NCBI GenBank assembly: GCA_043228905.1
Contig: JBHGNT010000021.1
Location: forward strand, 4,526,001-4,590,000
DNA from: Azolla caroliniana
Lineage: Eukaryota > Plantae > Polypodiophyta
Reading direction: 5' to 3'
DNA: 64,000 nt
Position numbers and translations under genes: made by a program. How positions within the stretch are numbered: position 1 is the first letter of the stretch; every line of letters starts with the position of its first letter. Under the pieces are notes generated by a model. The model was not told the origin of the DNA. It saw only the letters and a list, made by a program, of their open reading frames with translations, and did no database searches. This document shows, one piece after another, positions 2,049 through 61,912 of the stretch.

Positions 2049-2052
2049 ACGT

Positions 2053-2320
2053 CTTTCGAGTCGGTTTTCTTGTGCTCCCTTGATGTAACCCCAATAGCCT
2101 TGGCCGACAAGGTATTGGTGCATCTTGTACTCCAAGATGCGAAGTTGTTTCGGTCCAACTTCTCGCTAGGGAGAGCGCTCCCCATTTGAGTATTCATTGT
2201 CGATTAAGATTCCTTTCTTCTTTTCCTTCTCTCTCGAACACGAGCTATGTAGAGAGTAGTAATCATAGATTCTCAAAAGGTGTGTTCACACTTTGTATAT
2301 ATTGAGCTTGATTCTCAACA
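2053..2320 (-). mobile_element. Copia remnant: gag N-terminus plus LTR fragment
   Basis: MGSALPSEKLDRNNFASW copia-type gag start. 2270-2320 matches the TGTTGAGAATCAAGCTCAA LTR start seen at 35180 and 51361. Confidence 0.65.
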
Positions 2321-2677
2321 TTCTTGTTAGATTTGGAGTTACATTTCTCAAATTTGGCAAGTTTTATCATTGTGCTATTTGATGCCAAGAGAATTGGTGT
2401 TTGCACAATTCACACAGGTCGACCCAAAATTAGAGATCGAGATTGTTTTCCTATTTCTGAGGTATTGGGGGTTGCTTCACAATTGGGATACACACAATGC
2501 TTTTGTACTTGATGGTAGGCATGAACTTAAAGCATATCTATGAAAGTTGAAGTGAAAATGCTTTCTTCCATGGAGTGTTTGTCTTGCTTATTGGCAATTC
2601 AACATGTCCCACTCCATTCCTACACATTGTAAGTAGTGGTTTTCACACACATTTATTAGTATGATTGTGTGTTTTCA

Positions 2678-2680
<3 letters not shown>

Positions 2681-2721
<41 letters not shown>
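2681..2721 (+). repeat. (AG)n microsatellite
   Basis: About 20 AG units. Confidence 0.95.
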
Positions 2722-2723
<2 letters not shown>

Positions 2724-3484
2724 CAAATGATTGGAGAGAAGAAGGAGACAGAGAGGGGTAACACAACAACTTCGTAGGATGGAAGGGAAGTTGATTTGGC
2801 AAATTTCGCAACTATGTTCTATGGGGACGTTGTCCCAAGAGGAGACAGAGCTATGGCATCTAGTTTTACAACACTTGAGAGGGTTTTCCGTGCGTAGCAT
2901 TACTAATGAAGTAGGGAAGATAGCAAGGGTTGTATTATCATCTTGTTTTAATAACAAATATTGATTTACAAAAAGAAGAAGAAGGAGAAAGAGATGGAGA
3001 GAAGAAGGAGAAGGAGATGACGGTTATGGTGGGATAGGAGATCACTCCTCTTCTTGCTTCTCAACATTGCACTTGTACTCTTTTGAGGCACCCTTCATCG
3101 TCTTTCTCATCTTCTCTCGATGTGTACTATCTCATTTTCCCTTTGATGCTGAAAGCAAGCTCTTCCTTTTATTTTCTTTGGTTTTTCCAATGGGTATTTT
3201 CTTTTGTTCATATAAGAGACATTTGACACATGTAAACTTACATTTTCCGATTCTTGATATCTATAGGAAGAGTTTTCTTGTGCTTGGATAGTTTTTAAAT
3301 CTCTTAACCTTGCAATTGAATTCAAATTTACTTATTGATATTCTATCCATGGACTATGATAGTTGTCCATTACATCAATAATGACACGAATATGTAAAAC
3401 AAATTAGAAGAGATTGTTGATTTTGAAATAGATAAAATATTCACTTCAGAGGTGGTTTCCCATCGTGTGCCATTGACAACATGA

Positions 3485-5337: not shown

Positions 5338-5583
5338 ATGACTTCGACATCCAGAATAGGAGTTGAAATCAGAAAATTCGATGGAAAAAACTTTGCCCTA
5401 TGGAAGAGATGATGGAAGATGTGCTGATCATCAGAAGACAAATCGAAGCCATTCGACACAGAGAAAAACCTGCCTCGAGGACAACTAAAGAGTGGAGAGC
5501 TACAGACGAAATCGCACGCTGCACCATCCGAATGCATCTTGCAGAAAACATCTACTTCTGCATGGCAAAAGAGATGACAACGT
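5338..5583 (+). pseudogene. gag: Copia A gag N-terminal part
   Basis: MTSTSRIGVEIRKFDGKNFALWK. Removing gypsy B and one ACGT rejoins the frame as EMTTFSLWEKLQAVYEKK at 18469. Confidence 0.8.
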
Positions 5584-6031
5584 TGTCATGAAGATCCGTC
5601 ACTACGCGCGGATCGTGAGGCGGAACCGCCGGGGTTCTGGACCAGAAGGATTTAGAGTCGATACAAGCTTTGGCGAGAAAGTACTTAAGATAGATTGGGA
5701 AAGAGAGAAGTTGAGATTACACGATTGAGAGAGATTGATTGAACTTTTAACTTTAGATTTAAGAAACAAGTTACACGATCAATTTGAAAACGAATTTCTT
5801 CCTCTTAATTTTCATAAAAAAAACCGTGTTTTTTCTCCTCCCCCTTCCTTCTTTTATAGATGCTCTCATGCATATGATGCATGTGAGGGTACAAGACATG
5901 CATAAATTGCATGTTTGCCATTTGGCGCTTATGTATTACATGTGGTGCATGATAACCATGTCACTCATTTTAGTTCTCATGTATGAGAATTTACATATAA
6001 AAGTACAATGATAGAAATATAATTTCAACTA

Positions 6032-6104
6032 AATAGCTTGGCTTAATGGTAAGCCAATTGACTCCTAACTTGGAGGTGCAAGGTTCGAATCCTTACTTGC
6101 CCTC
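6032..6104 (+). ncRNA. tRNA-like (Pol III A/B box) cassette inside gypsy LTR
   Basis: A box TGGCTTAATGG 6039-6049; B box GGTTCGAATCC 6082-6092; D-arm and T-arm pairing; poor acceptor stem. Confidence 0.6.
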
Positions 6105-6674
6105 CTTGTATATGTAAATATGTATATATATTTATATATTTATTTATCTAGTCGCCGGATGCCGTCGGATCACCGTTGCCGGATTGCCGCCGAATCACCG
6201 GCTCCATCGCCGGTCCGGTTTTGGTTGGCCAAAACCCTTTACGAGTAGCTAGCCCGCCTCCACTCTTAGTTCAAGTTACCTTGAACTCTCTATGCTCCAC
6301 ACATAGACACAAAGATAATATCTTTTGCTCCACCTTATATATGATGAGAGCTGTATTGGTCGTGCCTATATGGGATATCTCACAATTTTCTCCTTTCCTT
6401 TTACAAACTTTATACCCTCATATCTTGATATTTAGTTGTCCGTTTCTCGTGTAATAAAGTGCATTCGAAACCTCCATCATTTTGTACTTAGATATTAAAT
6501 ATATTTAAAATGTTATCTTCACAATTATTGTACTACGTGATTCATACTCGATTTCGTACGTTTTATAAGAATTTCACACTATTGCCGAAAATCTTCACGA
6601 CATCCACCCCCACCAAACCGCACGTCCTCCTGTACGTGCCAAGAAGAGAAGAAGTGAGATTTCGGCTACGATGA

Positions 6675-7640
6675 TCAATTAGATTCCTCCATGTCTTCAT
6701 TTTCATCCGGCCTATTATGTTCATCGTCGAGGTAATCGAGGTCAGGATCCTTGTCTTGTCTTTTCTTGAAAATCTTTACTCTTTTTCCCGCAATGGGTAC
6801 GACCAACCTTGATCCGTCTAGTTCCGCAAGGTGGTATGTGGCATTATCGTTGGCACTTGTCACCACATACGGCCCGAACCATCTTCTTGCGAACTTCCTT
6901 GTTGTACTATGTTGATTGTCAAGGGTGCTGTCATAAACCAAAACCCAATCCCCTTCTTCAATCTTCTTGGGACGAAGTCGATGCGTGTTGTCGAACTGAA
7001 CTTTGTTCTTTACTCGGGCTGCCTTCATCATCTTTCGCGCTTTTTCTAAATCTTCAGGTCTTCTTTCAAGTTGCCTTATCCGCATCGCTAATAACTCTTC
7101 TTGGCTCATCTCGTTCTCCCACGATATCGCTACCCATGAGGCGATCGTCCTTTCGATGGGCATAATCGGCTTTTGTCCATACATAAGCTCCGTCGGCATA
7201 TACCCTGTCACCGAGCTATGTGTCGTTCTATCGGCCCACAAGGCATAGGGTAATAATCGTGGCCAATTCCCGACTCGACCGTTGCATGCCCGTACGATGG
7301 CTTTAACGATAGGTCCATGCCCTCGCTCGATCTTCCCATTTGCTTCCGGATTGTAGGCAGTCGTGAGGGAGAGCTTCACGCCTAGTCTTTCGAAGAGCTC
7401 CGTCGCTTCGTGCGCGTCCAACTCCCCTCGGTCGGCCACTATCTTCCCTACACATCCATATCGGCAAACAACATCTTCAAGTAAAAATTTACAAACGGCT
7501 GAAGTCGTCTTATTTGTCAAGGCTCGTCCTTCCACTTGCTTTGTCAAGTCTTCCCTTGCGAGCGCTAAGTACTTCATTTGTCCCACTCCCATTGGCATCG
7601 AGACCAGATCCACCATCCATTTGAAGTGAATGGTGACCAT
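6675..7640 (-). pseudogene. pol: Gypsy B integrase (N-terminal zinc finger partly deleted)
   Basis: rve core (WMVDL...IVADRGE...NGKIER) and WFGPY motif; no chromodomain; about 139-bp deletion relative to the copy at 48483-49664. Confidence 0.9.
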
Positions 7641-7717
7641 GTTCCTCTATGACCTGCCCAAGCACTCTCGTGGAATTCGGTCATCAGCGTCTCTTGCTCT
7701 TCTTTCTTTACCACCAC

Positions 7718-9285
7718 TCAACGTCGTATTCCTGTCCTTCTTTTTGGATGTCGCCAAAGGAATCCTCGCTTCAAGAAGTATCGGTAAGCTTTCTTTCGGA
7801 TTCGTAGGGCCTCCTCCTTTGTCAACGAAGCATCTGTCGTCAATGTTCTTAGGAATCTACCGATGAGTAACCATTCTCCTTCGTACTCGTTCTCGTTGAA
7901 GGCGTGGAGGGTTTGCGTGTCCTGGTCTTCCGCGGACAATCGAGCCATCTTGAAGAAGTTGAGGGCGACATCTTCATCTTCCGAAACCATGTTACTTCCA
8001 TTTGAAAATCTTGCCCTCGACAGCATGTCAGCCATGGCGTTCTTCTTCCCTGCGATGTGACGGATCTCTGGGTTTAAAGACTTGATGTAGGCGATCCACC
8101 TTAGCATAGCAAGATCTGGGGTCGCACATCCCGAGACCATTCCAAGAATTGGGAGACAATCTGTCTCTATTATCACTTCTGACCCGATCAGGTAATCTAC
8201 GGTCACGTAAATTGGTTTCCCTTCGGCATAGTCGGCCTTCCTTAGTGCCGGAGCTTCAAGAAGAAGTTTCGTTAATCTTCGCATCGCATCTGTGTGCTCG
8301 TCTCGCCATTCGAACTTTATTCTTTTCTTTAGTAGTCCATATAACGGTTCGGCGACATGAGCGTAGTGAGGAATCCATATATGATAAAACGCGCACGCTC
8401 CAAGGAACCTTCGAACCTCCGTTTGGTTTTCGCATTCTTCTTTCATGTCTTGGATTGCGTTCACTTTGGATGGCGAGGGCTTCCGGCCGTATGCTCCACA
8501 CAAGTGACCTACCACCAAGATCTCCGGTTGCCCAAATGCGGATTTTTCTCCCGAAAATGTCAAATTCGCATCTTCGAGCCTTTGAAGCACCTTCTCGCAA
8601 TCTTTCATATGATCCGCAACGAACTTTCTACAACCTTCCTTATCTTTCGATTCATCTTTCTCCTCATCCGAACATCCTTTTATCGGAATATCATCCAAGA
8701 ATGGCATCGTGATGTCCGGAATGCAATCCTTCAAGACTTTATTCATGGCATTCACCATATGAGCCACGAAGTTCGTTGCGCCTTGGGGTAAGGTACACAT
8801 CCGCACAAGCCCGATCGGAGTCCTCATGGTTGTAATGTCCCGATTGTCGATCGCCAATTGGAATTGGTCATATCCAGAGTAGAGATCGCCAATGGAGTAG
8901 ATGGACCGGCCCGCAAACGCTTCGGCAAATTCGTCCACGCTCGGACCGATTCCGGCATTTCGAATTGTCACCTTGTTGACGGGTTGAAGATCTTGGATGA
9001 ATCACAATGATCCATTCTTCTTCGGCACCGTGAACCACCTATTGGAATAAGGAGCATTCGACGGTTCTAGAATTCCCATACTCAACTTCTCCTTGAAGAG
9101 CTCGATCAGCTTCGGAAGGTGTGCTCTCGGAACCGGTATCGGTTTCAAGTTCCAAGGCACATGAGGCACCGTGAAGATCACCATCGGCTCTATAACCTTT
9201 GGGTCGGCGCATCCGATTTCTCGTGGGAAGAATGCGAAAGCCTTCCCATGTCTCTCAAGCATATCGCGAAACATTCGGTCCTCTT
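7718..9285 (-). pseudogene. pol: Gypsy B reverse transcriptase/RNase H
   Basis: LPQG, PFLDD and ADMLSR motifs; CGA>TGA stop at 9002; 55-aa in-frame RNase H deletion near 8195. Confidence 0.9.
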
Positions 9286-12200
9286 TGTTGAGAATCGACG
9301 CTTCGATTCACCTTCACCACTCGGCCACAACCAAGTAATTGCGAATCAATGCAGTAGAAAATAGGAACCACAGAGAGGAACACACGAATACACAGGGATT
9401 AACGTGGAAAACCCTAGATGGGAAAAACCACGGGAGTACAAGACTCCAAACCAACACTATACAAAGAGAAGTATACAATGGCGAGATGCAAGGCGACGAC
9501 CTTGAGCTCGCTGTCCTCGCCACAGGCGGCGGAAATACACAGAGGCGTCGTCCTCTTCCTCTCTCACGCTCTATCTCTCTCTCTCTCTCTCACGGCTGCT
9601 CCCACTTCACTCCTCTTGAGTGGAAAAACAGAAAAATGATCAGCAACTCTAAAACAGTTTGCCCTAAGTCATATTTATACATATATGACTTTGGGGCTAT
9701 TTACAACTATAGCCTCAGGGGCCCATAGCAAACATATTCACGGATATGTCCCTGCATCCGGATCGCTCTCCGGGTACATTCGTCATCCGGCTCCGAAGCC
9801 GGGGTCTTCATCATCCGGTTCCGAAACCGAAACCGGGCTCGTCGGCATTCATCTCCGACATCCGACCATCCCATCCGAAGGGACTGTAATCCCAACAAAC
9901 TCCCCCTTCACTTCGGCATGGGATGTCTTTCCAATCCGATCCTCTTCCGGCATGCTTCCAGCTTGTCGGGTGTGAGCACCTTGGTCAGCATATCCGACCC
10001 GTTCTCGTCCGTGTGGATCTTTGTCAGCACGAACTCCTTGTCTTCTATCCTTTCCCGGATCCAGTGATATCTTCGCTGGATGTGCTTCGTCCGGGAGTGA
10101 TAGGCCGCGTTCTTCGCAAGGTGGATTGCACTCTGACTGTCGCAGTAGAGTCGGTACTCCTCCTGCCGGATACCGAGCTCTCTAATGAAGTCCTTCATCC
10201 ATATTATTTCCTTGCCGGCTTCAACAGCTGCCATGTACTCCGCCTCCGTGGTTGACAACGCAACCGTCTTCTACAGCCTCGACTGCCACAAAACGGCCCC
10301 CCCTGCATACGTCATCACATACCCTGATGTGGACCGGCTGGTATCTGCATCAGCCGACATATCCGAATCGGTGAAGCCGTCGAGTTCGGGCTTACCGGAG
10401 CCGAATCGGAGGCACACGTTTGCCGTGCCTTTCAGGTATCGGAGTATCCACTTGGCCGCGTTCCAATGCTCTTTGCCGGGATTGCTCATGTACCGGCTCA
10501 CCACTCCGACTGCATATCCTATGTCCGGTCTCGTACACACCATGGCGTACATCAAGCTCCCGACGGCTGAGGCATACGGCACTTTCATCATATCCTCCTT
10601 TTCAGCCTTTGTCTTGGGACTTTGCTTGCTGGACAGCTTGCAGTTTGCCGGGAGGGTCGATCCGACCGGTCTTGCTTCCGACATGTTGAACCGGTGAAGC
10701 ACCTTCGTCACGTACTTCTCCTGTGACAGCCACAACTGCTTCTTCTTCCGGTCCCGGATGATGTGCATCCCTAGTATTTGCCTCGCCGGACCCAGGTCCT
10801 TCATTGAGAAGGTTCGGTGCAGAGCCTTCTTCAGCATCCGTATCTTGACCTGGTCCCGTCCGACGATCAACATGTCATCCACGTACAGGAGGAGTATTAG
10901 AAAGTCTCCTCCTTCGAACTTCTTCACAAACACGCAGTGGTCGGACTGCGTTTTGAGGTACCCCTCGTCGGTCATGAAGGAGTCGAACTTCCGGTACCAT
11001 TGCCGGGGAGCCTGCTTCAGTCCGTAAAGGCTCTTCTTCAACCGGCATACCAGGTGCTCCTTCCCTTTCTTCTCGAATCCTTCCGGTTGCTGCATGTAGA
11101 TCTCTTCATCGAGGTCACCGTGAAGGAACGCCGTCTTCACGTCCATCTGTTCTACCTCGAGGTCCATGCTTGCCGCTATGCTCAGCACCGTCCGGATGGA
11201 GGTCATCTTCACTACCGGGGCAAATATCTCGTCGAAGTCGACGCCCTTCTTCTGCTGAAACCCCTTCACCACGATCCTGGCTTTGTATCTCGGGGGGTTT
11301 CCGGCATCTCCCGGTTTCAGCTTGAACACCCACTTGTTTCGAAGTGCCCGCTTTCCTTTCGGCAACTCCACAAGTTCATATGTGTGGTTCTCATGCAGGG
11401 AATCCATCTCGTCCTGCATGGCACTCAACCACCTGCGGCTCTGGGTGTCATGTTTTGCTTCTTCAAAGCTCTCCGGCTCCCCCTCGTCGGTTAGCAGCAC
11501 GTGCTCTGGTTCCGGAAATCTCCGGGGGGCCCTTCTCTCTCTTAGAGGATATCTCCGTTCCGGAGTTTCGGTAATCGGTTCTTCCGATTCTTCTTCATCC
11601 GAATCCATTTCGGGATCGGGGCCGGTTCCGGTATCATTTTCATCTTCTTCGGTCGGTTCGGTTTCTTCACCGTCTTCGGCCGGATCCTCGAGTGCTAACC
11701 GGTCCCTTGCCGGTCGGGACTGCTCCTCGTAGAGTTGATCCTCACCGGTCGACTTGGAGCTCTTCATCTTCTTCTCCGACTCCCAGTCGGCGAGTGTCTT
11801 GTCCTCCATGAAGATGATGTCTCGACTCCTGAATATCTTCTTGTCGACCGGGTCCCATACTCGGTAGCCGAACTCGTCGTCGCCGTAACCGAGGAATATG
11901 CATGGCGGGGTCTTTGGATCTAGCTTCCCTCTCCGGTCCTTTGCCACATGCACGTATGCGAGACACCCGAACACCTTCAGATGCCGGTAGGATACTTCCC
12001 TACCGGTCCACACTCTCTGCGGCGTGTCTCCGTCCAAAGGTACTGAGGGTGATCGGTTTATCACATATGTCGCCGTCGACATTGCCTCAGCCCAAAACCC
12101 CTTGGGTAATTTCGCATGCGCCAGCATACTCCGAACCCTCTCCATTATGGTCCGGTTCATCCTCTCGGCCAGCCCGTTCAGTTCCGGCGTCTTCGGCACA

Positions 12201-14623
12201 GTAAACTCGAGTCGGATTCCCTTCGAGCGACAGTACTCCTGGAACTGCCCCCGGTATTCCCCTCCGTTATCCGCTCGTATTGCTTTCAGCTTCTTGCCGG
12301 ATTCCCTTTCCACTCTCGCGTGGAGTTCTTTGAAGACGCACAACACTTGGTCCTTTGTCTTCAGCGGTGCCGTCCACAGCTTCCGGCTGTGATCATCAAT
12401 GAATGTTACGAAGTACTGGGCTCCGCCATGTGACTTCGTTTCTACCTGACACACATCAGTGTGCACCAACTCCAATGGTGCGCTACGTCTCGTCGGTGGC
12501 CTTGAGTGGAAGGAGGTTCGGTTCTGCTTACCGGCCAGGCAATCGGTGCACTTCTCCAGGTGCACATGCTTCACTTGAATAAGGTTGTCTTCTGCAAGCC
12601 TCTTCATCCCCTTCTCACTCATGTGACACAGTCTTTTGTGCCACAGCTCACCGGCAGTGTCGGCTGCCACATTCAGCTCTTCAAGACATAACCGGGCATT
12701 CATCAGGTACAGTGTGTTGTCTTTCCGGGCCCGAGCCACTATCAAGCTCCCCTTGCTGAACTTCATTACGCCGTTCCGGATGCTACCTGTGTAGCCTTCA
12801 TCGTCTAGCCTCCCGGCCGAAATCAGGTTCAATCGAACCTCCGGAACATGTCGGACATCCTTCAACAGCATTTTGCATCCGGTCGGGGTTGTCAACCACA
12901 CGTCTCCTATACCGGCAATCCGGCACGTACCTTCATTTCCCATCCGAACACAGCCATGCTCACCGGCTGTGTAGGATGAGAAGTATCTTCTCTCCGGGGT
13001 CAGGTGGAACGATGCTCCGGAATCGACCACCCAGGTCGTCTCATCGCCGGCAATGTTTAGTTCACCTTCTTCGGTGATGAGCATGATTTCTTCCTCACTT
13101 GCCGCGAGTGCCGTTGTTCCTTTCCGGTCTTGCCCTCGCCGATCCGAACCTCTCCGGTCCGTGGCTCCCCGGTATGCACCGTTTCTCTCCGGTGACTTCT
13201 TCGAATCGGTGTCGTCGGCTCCGTTGTCTTTTCGGTAATGCCGACAATTCTTTCGGAAGTGCCCCGGCTTCCCACAGTGGAAGCATGTGGGCCTTCCTCT
13301 TGACTGCGACCGGGTCCCCGACTTCTCCCGTCTTTGCGGACTCCGGTTCCATTGTCTTCCCCGATCCGATTCGGTAAGCAGCGCCTTCGAGTCGGAGGCC
13401 GGTTCTTTATCTTTCCGACGCGCTTCTTCGTTCAAAATACTTGTCTTTACCGTTTGTAAGGACAAGTTATCTTCGGTGCAGGAGGTGCTGAGAGTCACCA
13501 CCAAGTTCTCCCAGCTTTCCGGCAATGTACACATCAGGATGATGGCTTGCATTGCATCCTCCAACGGGAACTTGATCGCCGCAAGCTGATTCACGAATCC
13601 CATGAACGTGCTTACGTGTTCCACCATACTCTCGCCGTCCCGGTACTTGAGATTCACTATCTTCCTCATCAGGGAGGTCCGGTTCAACGCATTCTTCCTC
13701 TCATAGAGGCCCGACAGCTTCCGCCACATCTCATATGCGTTGGTGTCGTTCGCCACATGTTGTAGAACGCTCACGTCGACGTATTGCCGAATGGTTGCAA
13801 CGGCTTTCCGGTTCAGAAGCCTCCATTCCGACTCAAGTACCCCCTTCGGTATTTCCGACCTGTCAATCGGTTCGTACAGGTCCCGAACAATCAGAAGATC
13901 CTCCATCTTGATCTTCCAGTCGGCGTAATTCTGTGCATTCAGCACCATCATCCCCGGCTGCCCGCTGCCGCCGCCTTCCATTTTCTGCAAAACCGAGCTC
14001 TGATACCAGTTTGTTGAGAATCGACGCTTCGATTCACCTTCACCACTCGGCCACAACCAAGTAATTGCGAATCAATGCAGCAGAAAATAGGAACCACAGA
14101 GAGGAACACACGAATACACAGGGATTAACGTGGAAAACCCTAGATGGGAAAAACCACGGGAGTACAAGACTCCAAACCAACACTATACAAAGAGAAGTAT
14201 ACAATGGCGAGATGCAAGGCGACGACCTTGAGCTCGCTGTCCTCGCCACAGGCGGCGGAAATACACAGAGGCGTCGTCCTCTTCCTCTCTCACGCTCTAT
14301 CTCTCTCTCTCTCTCTCACGGCTACTCCCACTTCACTCCTCTTGAGTGGAAAAACAGAAAAATGATCAGCAACTCTAAAACAGTTTGCCCTAAGTCATAT
14401 TTATACATATATGACTTTGGGGCTATTTACAACTATAGCCTCAGGGGCCCATAGCAAACATATTCACGGATATGTCCCTGCATCCGGATCGCTCTCCGGG
14501 TACATTCGTCATCCGGCTCCGAAGCCGGGGTCTTCATCATCCGGTTCCGAAACCGAAACCGGGCTCGTCGGCATTCATCTCCGACATCCGACCATCCCAT
14601 CCGAAGGGACCGTAATCCCAACA
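9286..14623 (-). mobile_element. Young Ty1/copia element C
   Basis: 612-bp LTRs 9286-9897 and 14012-14623 (3 substitutions seen); TSD CTCTT; iMet PBS 13997-14008; PPT 9898-9910. Confidence 0.97.
9908..13981 (-). pseudogene. Copia C gag-pol polyprotein with one premature stop (10271-10273)
   Basis: CCHC, DSGA, HKRLCH/rve, YVDD, RNase H motifs; CAG>TAG relative to the intact sister at 43500-47573. Confidence 0.93.
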
Positions 14624-14628
14624 CTCTT

Positions 14629-15201
14629 CAGGGAGAAGGAAATTCTCCTTTCCAACTCGTAGCTTCCCCTTCGTCTCTTTGGTGAAGACATGACCTATCT
14701 TCTTCGGACCTCTTAAGCTTGGATCGTTAGCGACTTCCTTCATCTTTTGCCAACTATCTTCCGGTAGCGGAACCGCAACTGGCTTGATCTTCTTATCCAC
14801 CATTTTATATTTCGTGTTGATGTCAACTTCCTTCATCGAGATGCCACGACGGTATTCATCGATGATAGCGTACATGTTGAAGGAGTTTACCGAAATCACG
14901 CATTGGTTGTGAAGATAGCTCAAGTCCACAACGTCCTCGATTTCGCCGATGGTGTCGTTAAATGAGGCTTCTTCCATAATATGAGTCACGAACTCCCCTT
15001 CTTCTATTATGTTCTCTTCTTTCAGCATCTTCTCGAATTCTTGTATCCGGTGCTTGTGATTCTTGTCGGGTAGTACTAGTTTACATGCGCCACTAGGTGT
15101 GACACATGTTGCTTCTCCTTGCAATCCACGCACTCTTCTTTCTTGTGGGGTCTTGTGATTGCTCGGACTATTTGTGCCCCATGCTTCAATAGTCCGCTCT
15201 A
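14629..15201 (-). pseudogene. pol: Gypsy B pol N-terminal segment (-1 frame relative to gag)
   Basis: Open from the slippery site to the copia insertion; TKYKMVDKKIKPV matches the ORF at 40928. Confidence 0.8.
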
Positions 15202-15208
15202 AAAATCC
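15146..15208 (-). promoter_or_regulatory. Predicted -1 ribosomal frameshift signal (GGAUUUU plus pseudoknot)
   Basis: Same sequence as 40748-40810. Confidence 0.7.
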
Positions 15209-17394: not shown

Positions 17395-17435
17395 CTCCAA
17401 GTATTAATCTTGACTTGATCCTTCCTACCACCTCT

Positions 17436-47573: not shown

Positions 47574-47647
47574 AGGGGGAGTTTGTTGGGATTTCGGTCC
47601 CTCCGGATGGGATGTCCGGAGATGAATGACGGCAAGCCCGGTTGCGG

Positions 47648-48225: not shown

Positions 48226-49664
48226 AAGATGTCGCCCTCGACTTCTTCAAGATGGCTCGATTGTCGGCGGAAGACCAGGACACGCAAACCCTCCACGCCT
48301 TCAACAAGAACGAGTACGAAGGAGAGTGGTTACTCATCGGTAGATTCCTAAGAACATTGACGACAGATGCTTCGTTGACAAAGGAGGAGGCCCTATGAGT
48401 CCGAAAGAAAGCTTACCGATACTTCTTGAAGGGAGGATTCCTTTGGTGACATCCAAAAAGAAGGACAAGAATACCACGTCGAGTGGTGGTAAAGAAAGAA
48501 GAGCAAGAGACACTGATGACCGAATTCCACGAGAGTGCTTGGGCAGGTCATAGAGGAACATGGGCGACGTTCGAAAAGTTGAAGGAGAAGTACTGGTGGC
48601 CAAGCATGTATAAAGATGTACTCCATTTCGTGTCCACGTGCGAAACTTGTCAAATATATTCAAATATACGTCATCGTGATGAGTTACAGCCGACATACCC
48701 ACTCACCATACACCTCAAATGGATGGTGGATCTGGTCTCGATGCCAATGGGAGTGGGACAAATGAAGTACTTCGCTCTGGCGAGGGAAGACTTGACAAAT
48801 CAAGTGGAAGGACGAGCCTTGACAAATAAGACAACTTCAGCCGTTTGCAAATTTCTGCTTGAAGAGGTTGTTTGCCGATATGGATGTGTAGGGAAGATAG
48901 TGGCCGACCGAGGGGAGTTGGACGCGCACGAAGCGACAGAGCTCTTCGAAAGACTAGGCGTGAAGCTCTCCCTCACGACTGCCTACAATCCGGAAGCGAA
49001 TGGGAAGATCGAGCGAGGGCATGGACCTATCGTTAACGCCATCGTACGAGCATGCAACGGTCGAGTCGGGAATTGGCCACGACTATTACCCTATGCCTTG
49101 TGGGCCGATAGAACGACACATAGCTCGGTGACAGGGTATATGCCGACGGAGCTTATGTATGGACAAAAGCCGATTATGCCCATCGAAAGGACGATCGCCT
49201 CATGGGTAGCGATACCGTGGGAGAACGAGATGAGCCGAGAAGAGTTATTAGCGGTGCGGATAAGGCAACTTGAAAGAAGACCTGAAGATTTAGAAAAAGC
49301 GCGAAAGATGATGGAGGCAGCCCGAGTAAAGAACAAAGTTCGGTTCGACAACACGCATCGACTTCGTCCCAAGAAGATTGAAGAAGGGGATTGGGTTTTG
49401 GTTTACGATAGTACCCTTGACAATCAACACAGTACAACAAGGAAGTTCGCAAGAAGATGGTTCGGGCCGTATGTGGTGACAAGTGCCAATGATAATGCCA
49501 CATACCACCTTGCGGAACTAGACGGATCAAGGTTGGCCATACCCATTGCGGGAAAAAGAGTAAAGATTTTCAAGAAAAGACAAGACAAGGATCCTGACCT
49601 CAATCACCTCGACGATGAACATAATAGAGCGGATGTAAATGAAGACATGGAGGAATCTAATTGA
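48226..49664 (+). pseudogene. pol: Gypsy D integrase
   Basis: H-x5-GH...CETC zinc finger, rve core and WFGPY; upstream TGA stops near 48396 and 48447. Confidence 0.9.
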
Positions 49665-50167
49665 TCACCGTAGCCGAAATCTCACTTTCTCTCTTCTTGG
49701 CACGTACAGGAGGATGTGCGGTTTGGTGGGGGTGGATGTCGTGAAGATTTTCGGCAATAGTGTGAAAATCCCATAAAACGTACAAAATCGAGTATGAATC
49801 ACATAATACAATAATTGCACGAAGATAACATTTTAAATAAATTTAATATCTAAGTACAAAATGATGGAGGTTTCGAATGCACTTTACGGCTCTCATCATA
49901 TATAAGGTAGAGCAAAAGCTATTATCTTTGTGTCTATGTGTGGAGCATAGAGAGTTCAAGGTAACTTGAACTGAGAGTGGAGGTGGGCTAGCTACTCGTA
50001 AAGGGTTTTGACCAACCAAAACTGAACCAACGATGGAGCCGGTGATCCGACGGCATCCGACACCGGTGAGGTGATGGCATCCGGCGGCAACCGACGACGA
50101 AGATGTGACAGCATCCGGCGAACTGGCGTCTGGTGACTAGATAAATAAATATATATACATATACAAG

Positions 50168-50242
50168 GAGGACAAGTATAAGGATTCGAACCTTGCACCT
50201 CCGAGTTAAGAGTCAATTGGCTTACCATTAAGCCATGCCATT
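50168..50242 (-). ncRNA. tRNA-like cassette in gypsy D 3' LTR
   Basis: Reverse-complement A box 50225-50235, B box 50182-50192. Confidence 0.55.
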
Positions 50243-50708
50243 TAGTGAAATTTATATTTCTATCATTGTACTTTTACATGTAAATTCTCATACATGAAAG
50301 CTAAAATGAGTGACATGGTTATCATGCACCACATGTAATACATAAGCGCCAAATGGCAAACATGCATTTTATGCATGTCTTGTACCCTCACATGCATCAT
50401 ACGCATGAGAGCATCTATAAAAGAAGGAAGGGGGAGGAGAAAAAACACGTTTTTTTTTGTTATGAAATTAAGAAGAAGAAATTCGTTATCAAATTGATCG
50501 TGTAACTTGTTTCTTAAATCCAAAGATAAAAGTTCAATCAATCTCTCTCAATCGTTTAATCTCAACTTCTCTCTTTCCCAATCTATCTTAAGTACTTTCT
50601 CGCTAAAGCTTGCGCCAAAGCTGGTACCGACTTAGAATCCTTCCGGTCCAGAACCCCGGCGGTTCCGCCTCACGATCCGCGTGTAGTGACGGATCTTCAC
50701 GACACCAG

Positions 50709-53495: not shown

Positions 53496-53499
53496 ACGT

Positions 53500-54215
53500 T
53501 GTCGTGAAGATTTTCGTCCATAGGGGGAAAACTGAGCGGAGTGAGCAAAACCGGGGTGTGCAACGTTGCACACGCACATGATGTATTTGTAAAATATTAA
53601 TAAGAACAAATGTAAATTGTAAGAAATGCACCACAAGATTCCTAAAGTGTAAATGTGATGTGCACTTATGTGCACATCCACATGAGAAAGAGAGGGGTAC
53701 ATAGGAGTACGAGGTGAGTAATGGGCATAGTAGTATGTGTGAGGAGTGGGAGTTAAGGCCCCATCAATCCCTCCTCCAAGAATCTAAGCAAATATCCCCC
53801 ATTGAATGAAGGGGATATTTAGTCTCTCATGTTTGTAACGGCTTTCTCTCCTTATGCTATAAAAGGAGAGGAAGGGGCACCATTGAGGGGGTTGCCTATT
53901 TTGAGTGAGAAGAGGTATACCACTTAGGTCGAGGGTTTCTATTTGGTTTAGGGTTTCTTCATTTCTTTCTTTGCTTATCCGATTAGGGTTTACATTCTAC
54001 TTATGTTTTAAGTCCGGCCCATGCGGCCGCAGTTGTAATTGCATTGCGGCTTTCATGCCCATAATATACATAACTTCATAAATCTTGTCTCTTTCTACTT
54101 TCTCTACCGTGTTAATGTCTTCCACTTTGCTCATACCCGTCTTCCCATCTACTCCCTAGTCCAAGACCCCCGTAGTCCCGCCTTATTCTACACGCATGCA
54201 CGGAAAAACGCGACA
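53500..54215 (+). mobile_element. Gypsy solo LTR
   Basis: TGTCGTGAAG...AACGCGACA, flanked by ACGT/ACGT; shares GGTATACCACTTAGGTCGA with LTR 1284-2048. Confidence 0.85.
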
Positions 54216-54219
54216 ACGT

Positions 54220-57200
54220 TGTCGCGTTGTTACGCGCGTGCGTGTAGAAAGGGCGGGACCACGGGGGTCTTGAACCGAGGAGCGAGAGAGAGAGAGAGAG
54301 AGAGAGATTTGCTGATACGCGGAAGCAAGAAGGAGGAGAATGAACGGAACCCTTAATTACAATAACAGTCGATTACAATATCAAGAGAATACAAACTCTG
54401 ATGGTTACAACCGGCGAGCCGGCGATGGACCCGACACAGGGACCCTACTCACGCATACAGATGGAACACACTAGACCCCGAAAACGTAGAAGGGAGAGCC
54501 TCTATTGGAAGCACACGGGCTATCCACGAAGCAGAGGCAGCAAACTCCCGACACCCGCAAAGAACGACAATTCTCGGAGAGAGAGAGAGAGACCGGCACT
54601 CGGTTCTGCAGTAGCACTCCCTCCTCCCCAATGCGCGGCCCCCTTTTCTCTCCCCTCTCTCTTTTCCTTTTATCGTTCCCATCCCTAGTCAAATCGCTTT
54701 ATTCTTTGTCCCTTCTGATAGAGATACGCACAATCCCCTAATTAAATGTGTACTACTTAGTATTTACATCAACAGATCCATTTATGAATCATGTACAAAA
54801 TATCAAAATATCAATTCACACGTCCATCCATGTAAGAGCCAGTTCATGCGCCTTTTCCTTCGATTCCGCCTATGGCCGGTTTTCTTCACGACATCCACCC
54901 CCACCAAACCGCGCATCCACCAGCATGCGCCAGAGACTGGTAGATACCGAAGAAAACCAGCTTCACTCGTCGCTCTCCGATTCTCCGCCAGGCCCGAACT
55001 GATCGTAGTTGTCGCTCCCGCTCGCAGGATCCGACTCGTCTTCGAACCGCTTCTTGAACGCTTTGATCCGCTTCTCGGCCACCGATACTGCTAGCCGTGT
55101 CCCGTCAAGTTCCACGAGGTGGTACGTGCCGTTGTCGTTCGCGCTCGTCACCGTGTAGGGCCCGAACCATCTCCTCGCGAACTTTCACACCACCTTGTGC
55201 TGATTGTCGAGGCTGTTGTTGTATACGAAGACCCAATTGCCTTCCTCAATCTTCTTTGGTCGCAACCGGTGCGTTCAGTTGAACCGGGTCTTGTTTCACT
55301 CCCTTGCCGCTCGCAGCTTTTCCTTCGCCCGTTTCACGTCCTCCGGCCTCCTCTCGAGTTGCCGAATCCGCGCCGCCAGCAACTCCTCCCGACTCATCTC
55401 GTCCTTCCAATCCACCGCCGCCCATGAAGAAACCGTTCGTTCCACCGGCATGATCGGCTTCTGTCCATACATCAGCTCTGCCAGCATAAACCCTGTCACC
55501 GAACTGTGCGTAGTTCGGTCCGCCCATAGTGCGTAAGTAAGGAGCCATGACAAATTCCCGACCTGCCCTCCGCATGCACGCACCAACGCCTTTACGATCG
55601 GCCCGTGCCACGTTCTACCTTCCCGTTCGCCTCCGGATTGTATGTCGTAGTGAGGGAGAGTTTGACCCCTAGTCGGTCGAACAACTCCTCAGCTTCCCGC
55701 GCATCCATCTCTCCCCGGTCCGCCACGATCCTCCCTATGCACCCGTACCGACACACTATCTCTTCGATCAGGAACCAGCATACCGCCGCGGTTGTCTTGT
55801 TCTGCAGTGCACGGCCTTCCACCTGGTTTGTTAAGTCTTCCCGCGCAAGCACCAGGAATCGCATCTGTCCTACTCCCATCGGCATCGTCACCAAGTCTAC
55901 CATCCACTTGAAATGGACCGTAGGCGGGCAGGTCGGGTGTAGCTCGTCCCGATGTCGGACTACAGAGTGCATCTGACAACTTTCGCAAGTCGTTACGAAC
56001 CGATGCATGTCCCGGTGCAGCCCCGGCCACCAGTACTTCTCCTTAAGCTTCTCGAATGTGGCCCACGTTCCGTGGTTCCCAGCCCAGGGACTCTCGTGAA
56101 ATGCCACCAGTAATTCCTCCTGTTCTTCTTTCTTTGCCACTACTCGGAGCGGGATGTCGTTTCTCTTCTTTGGGTGCCTCCATATGCACTCTTCTCTCGT
56201 CTTCTTCTGTACCAGACTCGCCTCTTCTCTCGTCCATGTTGCGTCCGGCGTCATCGTCTGTAGGAACCTCCCGATTTGGAGCCACTCCCCATCGTACCTG
56301 CTTTCGTCAAATTCGTTAAGCGACGGAGTGTCCCTTTTCCTCGCCATTACGTTAGCCGACCTGAAGAAGTCCTTGCCGACTTTTTCGTCATCCGAAACCA
56401 TGCCATCTTCGTCATTGAACCTCGCTCTCGAAAGCATGTCGGCCATGGCGTTATCCTTTCTGGAGATGTGCCGTATCTCCGGGCTCAGGGACTTAATGTA
56501 CGCTATCCACCAGAGCATTGCTAGGTCCGGTGTCGCGCATCCGGAAACCATGCCGAGTATCGGCAGGCAGTCCATCTCAATGATCACCTCCGTCCCGATC
56601 AGGTAGTCCTTGTCGGCCTTGACTGCCGAAACGATACCCCAAAGCTCGCGCTTAACTTGGGCGTATCCTCACTGCCGCTCGCTCAATACCTTCGCCCCGA
56701 ACCGGATCGGGAATTGTACGTCGTCCTTGTCCTCCTGACTGATTACCCACCCGATCCCGGTCGGGCTCGTGTCCATCGTCACACAAATGGGGACACCCTT
56801 GCCGTAAACCGCTTTACGCAAGGCCGACGCTACCGTAAGCGCCTCCTTCAGTCTCCGGACTGACTCCGTGTGCTCCGTCCTCCACTCGAACCCATGCCCT
56901 TTCTTCAATAGCCCGTAGAGAGGCTCCACAACATGCGCGTAGTGTGGAATCCAGATGTGGTAGAACGCGCATGCTCCCAAGAATCTGCGGACCTCCGTGA
57001 CCGACCCGCAATCATCCCTCTACCTCTGCCGGAGATGGCCTCTACCTCTCCCGGAGACGGTTTCCTACCGTAGGGCCCGCACAGGTGTCCGACCACCAAG
57101 ATCTCCGACTGTCTGAACGCCGATTTTTCTCTGGAGAAGGTGAGTCATGCGTTTTCAAGCCTCTGCAACACCTTCTCGCAATCGTCGATGTCGTTCGCGA

Positions 57201-57660
57201 CGAACCTCCGGCATCCGTCTGGCCCGACAGTCTTGTCCGCGTCATCCACCGGACACCCCTTTATCGAGATGTCATCCAAGAATGGCATGGTGATGTCCGG
57301 GATGCAGTCCCTTAGCACTTTGTTCATAGCGTTCACCATATGCGCCACCGAATTTGTCCCTCCTTGTGGTAGGGTACACATCCGTACTAGGCTGAGAGGA
57401 GTTCGCATCGTCGTGATATCCCTGCTTTCCACGGCTAGCTGGAACTCGTCGTACCCCGAGTATAAGTCACCGATCGAATAGATCGACCTTCCAGCGAAGG
57501 CCTCCGCGAACTCGTCTATGGTTGGTCTGATTCCTGCATTATGGATGGTCACCTTGTTGACCGATTGCAGGTCCTGAATGAAGCGCAACGTGTCGTTCTT
57601 CTTCGGCACCGTAAACCACCGATTCGAATACGGGGCACTTGACGGTTCGAGGATGCCCAT
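54220..57660 (-). mobile_element. 5'-truncated Phygy-like gypsy element I: 3' LTR 54220-54893, PPT, decayed RT-RH-IN
   Basis: Same PPT as B/D; PFLDD, DTSPTGIG, WMVDL and WFGPY motifs. Confidence 0.9.
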
Positions 57661-59420
57661 CTCAGAACCATATAAAATAGCTTGGCTACCCCCACTTCTA
57701 TCCAACTTATCCTCAATCATATTAAAATCTCCGACCATACACCAGTGATCCACATGGGGCAAAGTATCAAATAGATAGAACCACAACCTCCTCCTATCTG
57801 TTGACGCATTATGAGCATATACATTTAAAAAACCCAATTGTAGATTCTGCATTTCTAAAATAATAACTTGCACTCTTCCTTCCTCTAAAATCCTATAGTC
57901 AATCACATGAGAAGACCATTTTTTGGCCAATGTTATACAGACACCAGCTTTATTGCAGGAACCACTAAATAAGGATCCAATCACAAGACTCCTGAAATGG
58001 GCCTAGGAACCACTTAATAAGGATCAAAAAGAATCTTCTCTAGATGGACTCAAATGATGTTCTTGTAAAAGAACCATATCTACAGATCGCATAAAGGTTT
58101 TATGTAAGCCATGCCTGAGTCTAGCCTTAAATTTTTGTGCTTGTGCACCACCCAACCCTTGAACATTCCATGAAAAAATATGAAAATTATCCATAAGCTA
58201 ACAAAAGATGTTTACCTTTCACTCTCTTCTCCCCCACCGTTGCTTTCTTAGGCCTAGTAATTTGCCCAAAAATCTTGAATCCTTTCAAAGATTTCCTAGC
58301 CACAACTTTTGCTTATATATCCTTCTTTATAAATGAAGAGAGTGTGCCCTTTCCCTCCACGATCATACCTCCATTCATAACCATAGTATATGACTGCACT
58401 TACTGAGTTTTCAAGCATGATTCCTTGTGCATGCATACCATGGTTGGCTAAGGCCTTTGTTTTAGCTCGGGTTAACCTTCCAGAATACAATAACCCATCC
58501 ATATGACCATCCTCCATAGATATCACAATCGTGCTCACTTCATCCTTCTCCACCATAGTTAACGCCATGTGAGACTCACCTTGTAATGAGGAAGGCTCGA
58601 AAGATATCATATGTTCATTATCATTCCCTCCCTCAAAGGTCTTCTCCTTCATAGAATTTACAATATCACTTTCAATAACAACACATAATCCTCCTCTCTA
58701 CCAAGTACCATATCGTTAGTATTAAAAGGAGTTATTTGTAAATTTGTCTTTTTAACCTGTTGATTATCATTAGCTACATGTGATGTTTTTCTAGATAGTA
58801 CAAATACACCATTAGATGTCCTCATAGAGGACCGCCTATCATGCTTCCTCCTAACTTTTGTCCAGTCTTTATCATTAGTATTGCTAGAAAAACGCTTTTG
58901 AAGAGTTTGTTCATCTCTAACAGGACAATCCTTGACCACATGACCTACAATTACAAGTGAAACATTGATTAGGAAGTCCAGAATATTTAACTTTTTATAC
59001 CCTCATCGGGGCCTAAAACATAGGGGGTACCCTAACATAGGAATGGCAATGTCATGCCCTTATGACCAATTAATCGTACATACAGTAGGTTGAAATTCCC
59101 ATCCACATAACACACTACATCAAACTCTCCATCCATCAATTGAGCAATCAAAGAGGCCATATGTGGCATCACTGGTTTCCATTCTTTCTATAAAGCCAGA
59201 AACATGATGGAAAAGACAAAGTAAATGTTCACTAACTGCATAGCTCCCATTGCAAGAAGTGCAACAAAACTCCAAGGTTCCATCCTTAGCAGCATTAGCA
59301 CCATATCAGCAACCGAAAACTCGACATGATAACATCCTTTCCCTTGGCATTGAATATCCACAATCCAATGAAGATCTTCTTGGAGTCGCGCCTACAGAAA
59401 GTGACGCAACTCCCTACGAC
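57661..59420 (-). mobile_element. L1-type LINE remnant (ORF1 zinc knuckle; ORF2 APE endonuclease starting 58194)
   Basis: IFSWNVQGLG, LLQEHH, NVYAHN, WCMVGDFN; GLPNQCFTC...GHVVKDCP near 58920-58980. Confidence 0.8.
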
Positions 59421-60398
59421 TAGGATGCCCTCCGATCTACTTTCACGTGCATCTCTTGTTGCACCTCCATAGGCAAAGTTAAATTGACGACCAGATCTGC
59501 GACAGGATGAGCTACGAAGGGGAGTTCACCAAAATCCCTTCTTGACATCATTGTAGTTGTCGTCTCAGCCACCGTCTTCTCTATTTTTTTTGTAATGTTC
59601 ATATATTTAGGTTTAATTAATTAAATTATTAAACTATTAAATAATTAGGGGCATTAAAAAACATCAAGGAAAACAATAAACTAAGCTACTTAAAATGATA
59701 AAGTAGTAAACCCAGGTTTTAGAAACAAACCAAACCCTTTAATGATAATTGAAACTAAACCAAACCATTTAACTATATTCAAACTTATATAAATTGTTAA
59801 ACCATGACTTAACATGTCGCTTCAATTTTGAGCCAAAATCGTCTTCTCTTTTTTTTTGTAATGTTCGTATATTTAGGTTTAATTAATTAAATTATTAAAC
59901 TATTAAACAATTAGGGGCATTAAAAAATGTTAAGGAAAAAACAATAAACTGAGCTACATAAAATGATAACGTTGTCGTGAAGATCCGTCACTACGCGCGG
60001 ATCGTGAGGCGGAATCGCCGGGGTTCTGGACCGGAAGGATTCAAAGTTGGTACAAGCTTTGGCGCAAGCTTTAGCGAGAAAGTACTTAAGATAGATTGGG
60101 AAAGAGAGAAGTTGAGATTACACAATTGAGAGAGATTGATTGAACTTTTAACTTTAGATTTAAGAAACAAGTTACACGATCAATTTGATAACAAATTTCT
60201 TCTTCTTAATTTCATAAAAAAAAACCGTGTTTTTCTCCTCCCCCTTCCTTCTTTTATAGATGCTTTCATGCATATGATGCATGTGAGGGTACAAGACATG
60301 CATAAAATGCATGCTTGCCATTTGGCGCTTATGTATTACATGTGGTGCATGATAACCATGTCACTCATTTTAGCTCTCATGTATGAGAATTTACACGT

Positions 60399-61121
60399 TG
60401 TCGTGCCTTTCGGCGTCAGATCGTTTGCGTGAGCCGGGTGGGAACCACCGAGGTTTTGGACTAGGAGAAAGAAAAATACAAATAAGGCTAGTAAAGAATA
60501 GGTATAAAGAGTTATAAGATAAGAATCTCATGAATCCCACGAGTTTAGTATATTTAGTCAATATTTAGGTAGTAAGAGAGAATTATTTTAGCAAATTCGT
60601 GAATCCCACGAATATTTTAGATTGATTGATCATTATAGAAAAATAATCAACAAAAACTACAATGTGCTCCCCATCCTTATATAGTGATGGGAGAGACTAA
60701 GCATAGCTACATGCTTTTTTTCTAATATGTTCATGCACACTAAATGTGCATGTGATGCTTTTCTAATCCTTGCTTTTATTTGCTAAATATAGTGCTCATG
60801 CACGCTAGATGTGCATGAGTCACTTTTTAGTTGCTTGCGTTTTTCTATAAAATATTCACGCACTCTAAAAATGCATGATTTACCTTTTAATAAAGGTAGG
60901 CGCAAATAAAGCACTTATAGTTATTAAATCTATTTGTAAAATACTAAAGATAAGGTAGCATAATGGTAAAGTTAAGGTTTGGTTATGTGGAGGTATAGGG
61001 TTCAAATCTTGCCTTATGCACATGATAAATATTTTGATATATTATTTATTTATCTATATGTATCTAAAATCAGATATATTATTTTATGGTTTTCACGTAG
61101 TGTGTGGAATACACTACAACA
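60399..61121. mobile_element. Nested solo LTR of a different gypsy family
   Basis: TGTCGTG...TACAACA; TSD ACGT/ACGT; removal restores the host LTR. Confidence 0.85.
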
Positions 61122-61158
61122 ACGTAAAAGTACAATGATAGAAATATAAATTCAACTA

Positions 61159-61231
61159 AATGGCATGGCTTAATGGTAAGCCAATTGACTCCTAACTCGG
61201 AGGTGCAAGGTTCGAATCCTTACTTGCCCTC
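61159..61231 (+). ncRNA. tRNA-like cassette in solo LTR
   Basis: A box at 61166, B box at 61209; GGCA/TGCC partial acceptor stem. Confidence 0.6.
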
Positions 61232-61912
61232 CTTGTATATGTATATATATTTATTTATTTATCTAGTCACCGGACGCCAGTTCGTCGGATGTCGTCACCT
61301 CGTCGTCGGCGGCCGCCGGATGCCGTCACCTCACCGGTGTCGGTTACCGTTGTCGCCGTCGGATGCCGCCGGATGTCGTCACCTCACCGACGTCGGTTAC
61401 CGTTGCCGCCGCCGGATGCCATCACCGAATGCCGCCGGATTGTCGTCGGATCACCGGCTCCATCGTCGGTCTGGTTTTGGTTGGCCAAAACCCTTTACAA
61501 GTAGCTAGCCCACCTCCACTCTTAGTTCAAGTTACCTTGAACTCTCTATGCTCCACACATAGACACAAAGATAATATCTTTTGCTCTACCTTATATATGA
61601 TGAGAGCCGTATTTGTCGTGCCTATGTGGGATATCTCACAATTTTCTCTTTTCCTTTCACAAACTTTATACCCTCATATCTTGACATTTAGTTGTCCGTT
61701 TCTCGTGTAATAAAGTGCATTCGAAACCTCCATCATTTTGTACTTAGATATTAAATTTATTTAAAATGTTATCTTCACAATTATTGTATTATGTGATTCA
61801 TACTCGATTTTGTACGTTTTATGGGATTTTCACACTATTGCCGAAAATCTTCACGACAATGTAGTAAACCCAGGTTTTAGAAACAAACCAACCCTTTAAT
61901 GATAATTGAAAC

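What the first reader, a model, noticed from the sequence alone, without database searches (positions are those of the whole stretch)
2049..61862. Sequence-specific integration: gypsy group inserts at CpG-centred 4-bp palindromes, mostly ACGT
Seen: seven insertions from about five distinct LTR types of this group have these flanks: ACGT (2049, one side); ACGT/ACGT (5580/18465); CCGG/CCAG (37980/50705); ACGT/ACGT (53496/54216); ACGT (54216, element I, one side); ACGT/ATGT (59969/61859); ACGT/ACGT (60395/61122). Both mismatches are deamination-type. Removing one ACGT restores the host frame (copia A gag) or the host LTR. In the 270-bp tandem duplication the copy with ACGT was hit and the copy with AAGT was not. 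Copia elements here have unrelated 5-bp TSDs. Known: plant LTR elements usually make 5-bp TSDs with weak specificity; Drosophila errantiviruses make specific 4-bp TSDs. Inference: an integrase without a chromodomain reads NCGN, possibly methyl-CpG, which would steer it into heterochromatin. ACGT is also the G-box/ABRE core.
Basis: partly seen in the sequence, partly recalled or inferred. Interest (0 to 1): 0.8.

Follow-up and report, generated by a model that had tools for sequence, protein, structure and literature searches.

The report
Bryophyte-type retrotransposon inserting at CpG sites
These jumping genes almost always land on a four-letter site with CG in the middle, a habit already published for the moss 'Phygy' family to which they likely belong; the extra data narrow the preferred site but do not show that methylation is read.

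Summary
All seven insertions and their flanks are as stated; they use six target sites. The elements are chromodomain-less Ty3/gypsy retrotransposons whose named integrase relatives are mostly from the liverwort Riccia. They fit the Phygy clade, for which Neumann et al. 2019 report 4-bp NCGN TSDs in 186 elements.

An independent set of 57 unique LTR junctions gave 48 NCGN, 8 with a TG/CA centre (probably decayed CpG) and 1 other, against 3.5% background CpG. ACGT is 15 of 57. Palindromes are not enriched (18 of 48 against 29%, p=0.12), and TCGA is never used. The rule is VCGB: not T first, not A last (46 of 48).

The likely mechanism is the bent-target geometry of 4-bp integrases (foamy virus VYRB) plus base-specific reading of the central CG, probably by a conserved C-terminal-domain loop. 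Reading of methyl-CpG is untested (about 15%). A G-box tether is not supported.

The parts
1284..2048 (-). G0 5' LTR (765 bp); primer site at about 1262-1279; gag remnant runs leftwards to about 218; outer flank ACGT 2049-2052
5580..5583 (.). G1 TSD, left copy (ACGT), inside a copia gag
5584..18464 (-). G1 element: 3' LTR 5584-6602, 5' LTR 17462-18464 (98.6% alike), primer site about 17436-17453, gag-protease ORF 15199-17403 with DUF4100, RT/RH/INT in pieces; 7538 bp net of the nested copia
9286..14623 (-). copia nested in G1, 5-bp TSD CTCTT/CTCTT (internal control)
18465..18468 (.). G1 TSD, right copy (ACGT)
37980..37983 (.). G2 TSD, left copy (CCGG), inside an older gag of the same group
37984..50704 (+). 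G2 element: 5' LTR 37984-38957, primer site about 38966-38983, gag-PR, RT-RH 40838-42883, polypurine tract before 49737, 3' LTR 49737-50704; 7299 bp net of the nested copia
42804..48220 (+). copia nested in G2, 5-bp TSD AGATG/AGATG (internal control)
48450..49664 (+). G2 integrase reading frame (404 aa): H2C2 zinc domain, D94-D153-E188 core, SH3-like C-terminal domain with GPY motif and conserved loop Q326/H327/K332/R336, acidic tail, no chromodomain
50705..50708 (.). G2 TSD, right copy (CCAG; CpG transition)
53496..53499 (.). S TSD, left copy (ACGT), inside a copia RT
53500..54215 (+). S: solo LTR (716 bp), second LTR type
54216..54219 (.). ACGT shared by S (right TSD copy) and element I (outer flank); the two LTRs meet tail to tail
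54220..57664 (-). Element I: 3' LTR 54220-54893, INT and RT-RH pieces; far end lost, joined to a LINE-like stretch
59701..59704 (.). Empty sister site (AAGT) in the first copy of the 267-bp tandem duplication
59973..61858 (-). Solo LTR of the G1/G2 type; TSD ACGT 59969-72 / ATGT 61859-62
60399..61121 (-). Nested solo LTR (723 bp) of another type inside the solo LTR; TSD ACGT 60395-98 / ACGT 61122-25

Best explanation
These are chromodomain-less Ty3/gypsy retrotransposons, likely of the bryophyte Phygy clade, that insert at 4-bp CG-centred sites of the form VCGB, and their integrase likely picks the site itself by bending the target at the central pyrimidine-purine step and contacting the two central G:C pairs, probably without needing methylation. 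Shown: 4-bp duplication, CG centre, avoidance of T at the first and A at the last position, ACGT the single most used site, no chromodomain. Taken from known intasome biology: a 4-bp stagger favours a bendable central YR step and disfavours T/A at the edges (foamy virus VYRB). Inferred: the narrowing from any YR to CG comes from base contacts, best candidate the conserved loop Q326-H327-x4-K332-x3-R336 of the C-terminal domain. Inferred: TG/CA-centred flanks are CpGs that decayed after insertion.
For: 57 unique external 5' junctions, from 85 matches after dropping 20 preceded by the polypurine tract, 1 without flank and 7 duplicates: 48 NCGN, 8 NTGN/NCAN, 0 NTAN, 1 AAGT; background CG 3.5%; binomial p=5e-61. 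14 external 3' ends of 21 found (7 were followed by the primer site): 13 NCGN, 1 ATGT. T-first or A-last in 2 of 48 against 62% background. CG is 48 of 56 YR-centred sites against 15% expected (p=4e-32), so flexibility alone is not enough. All three TSD pairs with a TG/CA that look genuine keep CG in the other copy (G2, solo, L042). The share 8 of 56 matches CpG decay between paired LTRs, 4% per copy in G1 and 13% in G2. In contigs of four sequencing runs with four organism labels, the largest listed class of loose ends matches the full ACGT before the LTR in three runs (X1 27 of 71, X2 27 of 71, X16 10 of 27 listed; X15 5 of 25). Phygy features: 4-bp NCGN, tRNA-Trp primer, no extra domain, 7.7-10 kb. 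Integrase closest to foamy virus and Ty3 integrases by sequence and fold. Serrao 2015 gives the VYRB rule and names Arg329 of the C-terminal domain as a target contact (passages and section 6). Loop conservation in alignment A1: K332 56 of 56, Q326 55 of 57, H327 53 of 57, R336 51 of 55.
Against: No Phygy reference sequence could be compared: the paper's FASTA and element table were too large to read and no Physcomitrium-named protein was among the listed hits. The loop's role rests on conservation and on a recalled position of the foamy virus residue; the model is a monomer without DNA, the loop block has pLDDT 58-69, and the loop could bind viral DNA or another subunit instead. The 57 junctions come from 13 assemblies with neighbouring accession numbers, probably one study and few host species, and 51 of 57 are of the S-type LTR. 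Paired ends in those short-read contigs are often chimeric (L011, L022, L041, L043, L073 have unmatched ends), so single flanks were counted. The loose-end classes are approximate and 34 rows were not shown. Old insertions have passed through selection, and no methylation data were available.
Confidence: 0.7

Rival explanations
1. The integrase reads 5-methyl-CpG, so it would steer a chromodomain-less element into methylated repeat-rich DNA.
For: At least 32 of 57 flanks show repeat evidence, and most window targets lie in other retroelements. Many flanks are CpG-depleted (observed/expected median 0.78, range 0.15-1.46, n=52). In Physcomitrella ACG is the CG context most dependent on DNMT3b and keeps the most methylation in the met mutant (PMC6453930 passages), and ACG is the favourite start here (27 of 48). 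Phygy is reported enriched in a liverwort's centromeres (PMC12885004 passage). A 1992 paper on CpG methylation and retroviral integration exists (title only, in a reference list; content recalled).
Against: No methyl-binding, chromo, PHD or BAH domain was found in the integrase (Pfam; tails of relatives are short and acidic). TCG, which should be methylated like other CG contexts (inference), is almost never used (1 of 48), so flank choice is better explained by the general integrase rule. Flanks include CpG-rich DNA with no sign of depletion. Residence in repeats is expected from genome make-up and selection alone.
Confidence: 0.15
2. Only DNA bendability matters (any central YR step), with no base-specific CG reading; CG wins because it, or its methylated form, bends best in this intasome.
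For: 56 of 57 sites have a YR centre, and the edge rule equals that of 4-bp retroviral integrases.
Against: TA is never used (0 of 57; background 6%) and TG/CA (background 14%) appears only at the rate of CpG decay. In retroviruses the YR excess averages only 63% over chance, far weaker than the roughly 24-fold CG excess here.
Confidence: 0.1
3. A host bZIP/bHLH factor bound to ACGT cores (G-box/ABRE) tethers the intasome.
For: ACGT is the top single site: 15 of 48 NCGN against 5.5% background (p=3e-8); 5 of 6 window sites.
Against: 33 of 48 NCGN sites are not ACGT; the base before ACGT is C6 A5 G3 T1; the G1, solo and nested sites are not CACGTG. A bound factor would cover the very bases that are cut (inference).
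Confidence: 0.03
4. Artefact: ACGT is part of the LTR end, or a conserved neighbour carried with the element.
For: 5 of 6 window sites are the same 4-mer.
Against: Inner LTR edges lack it (20 of 85 matches are preceded by the polypurine tract instead); 19 different 4-mers occur among 57 junctions; hosts are contiguous with one copy; a 93-bp mini-LTR has a matched non-palindromic ACGG/ACGG pair (L017).
Confidence: 0.01

Closest known systems
Phygy clade, non-chromovirus Ty3/gypsy of Physcomitrella patens (Neumann et al. 2019, PMC6317226)
   Same: 4-bp NCGN TSD, no chromodomain or extra domain, tRNA-type primer site of the sequence recalled as tRNA-Trp, short element almost filled by coding sequence.
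   Different: The host here is unnamed. The text read gives only 'NCGN' and no mechanism; here the motif resolves to VCGB with ACGT and ACGG/CCGT on top. Net sizes of 7.3-7.5 kb (copies with internal deletions) fall just below the 7.66-9.97 kb range.
Prototype foamy virus and gammaretroviral integrases with 4-bp TSD (Serrao et al. 2015, PMC4422553)
   Same: Central YR step, T disfavoured at position 0 and A at +3 (VYRB); closest solved integrase by sequence and fold.
   Different: Their preference is weak and accepts all YR steps; here 84% of sites are CG, and no T/A preference is seen two bases outside the site.
Drosophila errantiviruses gypsy, ZAM/Tirant, Idefix (review PMC5408687)
   Same: Ty3/gypsy integrases with specific 4-letter targets: TATA, CGCG, ATAT (passages).
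   Different: Different lineage and host; their motifs are alternating palindromes; no env-like frame was detected here.
Selgy and TatI (Selaginella; Neumann 2019)
   Same: Non-chromoviruses with 4-bp TSDs; TatI also uses tRNA-Trp.
   Different: Selgy is about 5 kb with a tRNA-Ala primer; TatI carries an archaeal-type RNase H; no NCGN preference is reported for either.
Chromovirus RLG1 of Physcomitrium
   Same: Gypsy element of a bryophyte that nests in repeat-rich DNA.
   Different: Its integrase has a chromodomain (PMC7466625 passage); this integrase has none.

Membership tests
non-chromovirus|Phygy | Ty3/gypsy domain order gag-PR-RT-RH-INT | tested here: met
   Pfam and tblastn map of G1 and G2
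non-chromovirus|Phygy | No chromodomain, no archaeal RNase H, no extra ORF | tested here: met
   No such Pfam hit; integrase ends about 30 acidic residues after the C-terminal domain in the query and in the 70 relatives printed; polypurine tract follows within about 70 bp
non-chromovirus|Phygy | 4-bp TSD of form NCGN | tested here: met
   6 of 6 window sites; 48 of 57 and 13 of 14 outside junctions
non-chromovirus|Phygy | Primer binding site for tRNA-Trp (81% of members) | tested here: inconclusive
   The 18-nt site in G1 and G2 is the exact complement of the plant small RNA miR894, tabulated as a gypsy primer-site complement and described as a tRNA fragment. The Trp isotype is recalled; a scan for the tRNA gene found none in 31 loci
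non-chromovirus|Phygy | Length 7656-9968 bp | tested here: inconclusive
   7538 and 7299 bp net, both with internal deletions
non-chromovirus|Phygy | RT/RH/INT phylogeny groups with the Physcomitrella Phygy references | not testable with these tools
   Reference FASTA too large to read; named relatives are Riccia (up to 67% identity over most of the integrase), one Ceratopteris and one fungal protein. DUF4100 is present; its description from Physcomitrella is recalled
chromovirus (Tcn1, Galadriel, Tekay, Reina, CRM) | Chromodomain after the integrase | tested here: not met
OTA/Tat (TatI, TatII) | Archaeal-type RNase H in the polyprotein | tested here: not met
   No extra RNase H family in window ORFs or in full-length relatives such as P0001
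errantivirus | env-like third ORF | tested here: not met
   No room between integrase stop (49664) and the 3' LTR (49737); no env-like Pfam hit
methyl-CpG-targeting retroelement | Methyl-CpG binding domain, or shown preference for methylated target | not testable with these tools
   No such domain found; binding and methylation state cannot be measured here

The most novel reading that the evidence does not exclude
The Phygy-type integrase reads the methylated CG itself through a conserved C-terminal loop, giving a bryophyte retrotransposon lineage a chromodomain-free route into silenced DNA and a self-renewing target, since each insertion copies a usable CpG site.
Probability: 0.15. Interest if true: 0.75.

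Novelty: new member of a known kind. Interest (0 to 1): 0.3.

Why it matters
Most plant LTR retrotransposons show little target-sequence choice; this lineage is the published exception, and no mechanistic study of it appeared in the listings of my searches. The refined VCGB rule and a candidate reading loop make the mechanism testable with a purified integrase. If methyl-CpG is what is read, it would be a new way for an LTR element to find heterochromatin. If not, it is still an unusually strict natural variant of the foamy-virus VYRB rule.

Tried and rejected
No genome is held for the window, so a genome-wide logo for this host was replaced by a metagenome scan and sequencing-run contigs. One search, over the whole solo LTR, gave nothing on flanks; its joint 59969-61861 is best read as the sister copy of the tandem duplication, not an empty allele. 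Global LTR-LTR identities are at noise level between types (reverse complements score alike) and were not used. Paired TSDs in metagenome contigs were rejected as mostly chimeric. A scan of viral contigs with the primer-site stretch gave 31 chance-like loci and no tRNA. Cluster look-ups gave no organism names; a gag search gave no named host. Rfam and ARAGORN do not call the A/B-box segment in the LTRs a tRNA. Local CpG density near sites is barely above that further away (0.039 against 0.036 per bp, n=52). Earlier-findings look-ups returned nothing. The 1992 methylation paper was not held. Neumann's element table with individual TSD sequences could not be read; the VCGB refinement may be derivable from it. 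I considered that CCGG/CCAG might come from two recombined elements and rejected it because the host gag is contiguous. Papers seen: PMC6317226 (passages, section 9, one supplementary table), PMC4422553 (passages, section 6), passages only of PMC6911290, PMC11899658, PMC7466625, PMC12885004, PMC6453930, PMC5846777, PMC5408687 and bioRxiv 2020.04.25.061721.
Full report
Observation. There are seven insertions at six target sites, because solo LTR S and element I meet tail to tail at one ACGT. All six sites have a CG centre in at least one copy (window CG frequency 4.7%, P about 1e-8). The 4-mer is a true target duplication. Inner LTR edges carry the polypurine tract or a spacer plus primer site. 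The copia gag around G1 is in register for one ACGT. Sister LTRs carry one 4-mer, ATAT or ATGT, where the nested LTR sits. The older gag around G2 is contiguous. The sister copy of the 267-bp duplication has AAGT and is empty, and the two nested copia elements have 5-bp TSDs CTCTT and AGATG.

Identity. G1 and G2 have gag with DUF4100, protease, RT, RNase H and integrase in gypsy order, with no chromodomain, extra RNase H or env hit. The integrase ends in a short acidic tail, as in the 70 relatives printed. Named relatives are mostly from the liverwort Riccia, with one fern and one fungal protein; the closest (up to 94%) are unnamed metagenome proteins. The primer site is the complement of miR894, a tRNA 3' fragment; that it is tRNA-Trp is recalled. 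Neumann et al. 2019 define Phygy as a non-chromovirus clade with 4-bp TSDs in 186 of 186 elements, motif NCGN, tRNA-Trp primer in 81%, 7.7-10 kb and no extra domain, and name it as the exception among plant LTR elements in having a sequence preference. A liverwort genome paper also lists Phygy, enriched at centromeres. The core claim is therefore in print. Membership is likely but was not tested by phylogeny.

Independent test. No host genome is held. A scan of metagenome contigs with the LTR 5' terminus gave 85 matches: 20 preceded by the polypurine tract, 1 without flank, 64 external, of which 57 unique. Of the 57, 48 are NCGN, 8 have a TG or CA centre, none TA, and one is AAGT; background CG is 3.5% (p=5e-61). 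Of 21 LTR 3' ends in the same loci, 7 were followed by the primer site; the other 14 gave 13 NCGN and 1 ATGT. Contigs from four sequencing runs show a full ACGT match before the LTR as the largest listed loose-end class in three runs (approximate, list cut). Limits: 13 assemblies of probably one study, 51 of 57 junctions of one LTR type, and chimeric pairing of ends in several contigs.

Refinement. The target is not mainly ACGT and not a palindrome as such. ACGT is 15 of 57; ACGG/CCGT together are also 15; palindromes are 18 of 48 against 29% expected (p=0.12); TCGA, the commonest background NCGN, is never used. T first or A last occurs in 2 of 48 against 62% expected, so the rule is VCGB, with A>C>G first and T>G>C last. 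TG/CA-centred flanks (8 of 56) match CpG decay between paired LTRs (4% and 13% per copy), and the three credible pairs with such a flank keep CG in the other copy (G2, solo, L042).

Mechanism. The integrase is closest to foamy virus and Ty3 integrases in sequence and predicted fold. For retroviral integrases with 4-bp TSDs the target is sharply bent at a central YR step and T/A are disfavoured at the edges; the foamy consensus is VYRB, with contacts from Ala188 and from Arg329 of the C-terminal domain. VCGB is a strict special case of that rule. Flexibility alone does not explain it, since CG takes 48 of 56 YR sites against 15% expected and TA is unused. I infer base-specific contacts to the central G:C pairs. 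The best candidate is the loop before the GPY strand, where Q326, H327, K332 and R336 are kept in 93-100% of aligned relatives. This assignment is inference from conservation and from a recalled position, on a DNA-free model in which the loop is of low confidence.

Methylation. Nothing here tests it. For: at least 32 of 57 flanks are repeats, many are CpG-depleted, and ACG is the context most tied to DNMT3b in moss. Against: no reader domain, near-total avoidance of TCG, flanks spanning CpG observed/expected 0.15-1.46, and selection can explain residence in repeats. I give it about 15%. A G-box tether is not supported.

Verdict. Real, well supported, and a new member of a known kind. What this work adds is the VCGB rule, evidence against the palindrome and ACGT framing, and a testable loop. 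The listings of six literature searches showed no mechanistic study of the Phygy preference; subscription journals are mostly outside that library. Interest 0.3.

Noticed in passing
window about 6039-6091, 17917-17969, both G2 LTRs, 61166-61218; diverged copy about 60956-61008; also L082: A tRNA-like segment with RNA polymerase III A- and B-box-like motifs and an AT-rich tail sits inside the G1/G2/solo LTRs and, diverged, in the nested LTR type, antisense to the element; not found by the same pattern in G0, S or I. Not called by Rfam or ARAGORN; folds better than shuffles in G1 (z=-3.7). It could be a captured SINE or a Cassandra-like Pol III cassette.
   Followed up: partly
window 54209-54226; L021; L041: Insertions into a sibling's own TSD or LTR tip: S and I tail to tail around one ACGT; L021 head to tail around one ACGT; L041 appears inserted at the ACGC inside an older LTR end. 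Each insertion leaves usable CpG targets. Enrichment over chance was not tested.
   Followed up: partly
L017: A 93-bp element with both LTR termini and a matched ACGG/ACGG duplication: an internally deleted mini-LTR, possibly a non-autonomous form.
   Followed up: no
window 57665-59570: A LINE-like 5' part on the minus strand (endonuclease-like start read; an upstream zinc-knuckle-like stretch read by eye) is joined directly to the RT of element I, presumably by a deletion.
   Followed up: partly
window primer sites about 17436-17453 and 38966-38983: An 8-nt spacer lies between LTR and primer site in G1/G2 (4 nt in G0 and in S-type loci); the site is complementary to miR894, so tRNA-fragment silencing of this lineage is plausible.
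   Followed up: partly
window about 34200-37780 and 51361-52125: Degenerate pieces of a different gypsy lineage (RT-RNase H about 25-30% identical to this group), joined at about 37780 to the older gag that hosts G2.
   Followed up: no
P0114: A distant relative (42% identity over the integrase) with DUF4100 carries a PHD-finger Pfam hit, so some relatives may have gained a chromatin reader.
   Followed up: no
window 9286-14623 and 42804-48220: Two young copia copies of one family (LTR pairs with 3 and 1 mismatches) each sit in the RT-RNase H region of a gypsy of this group.
   Followed up: no
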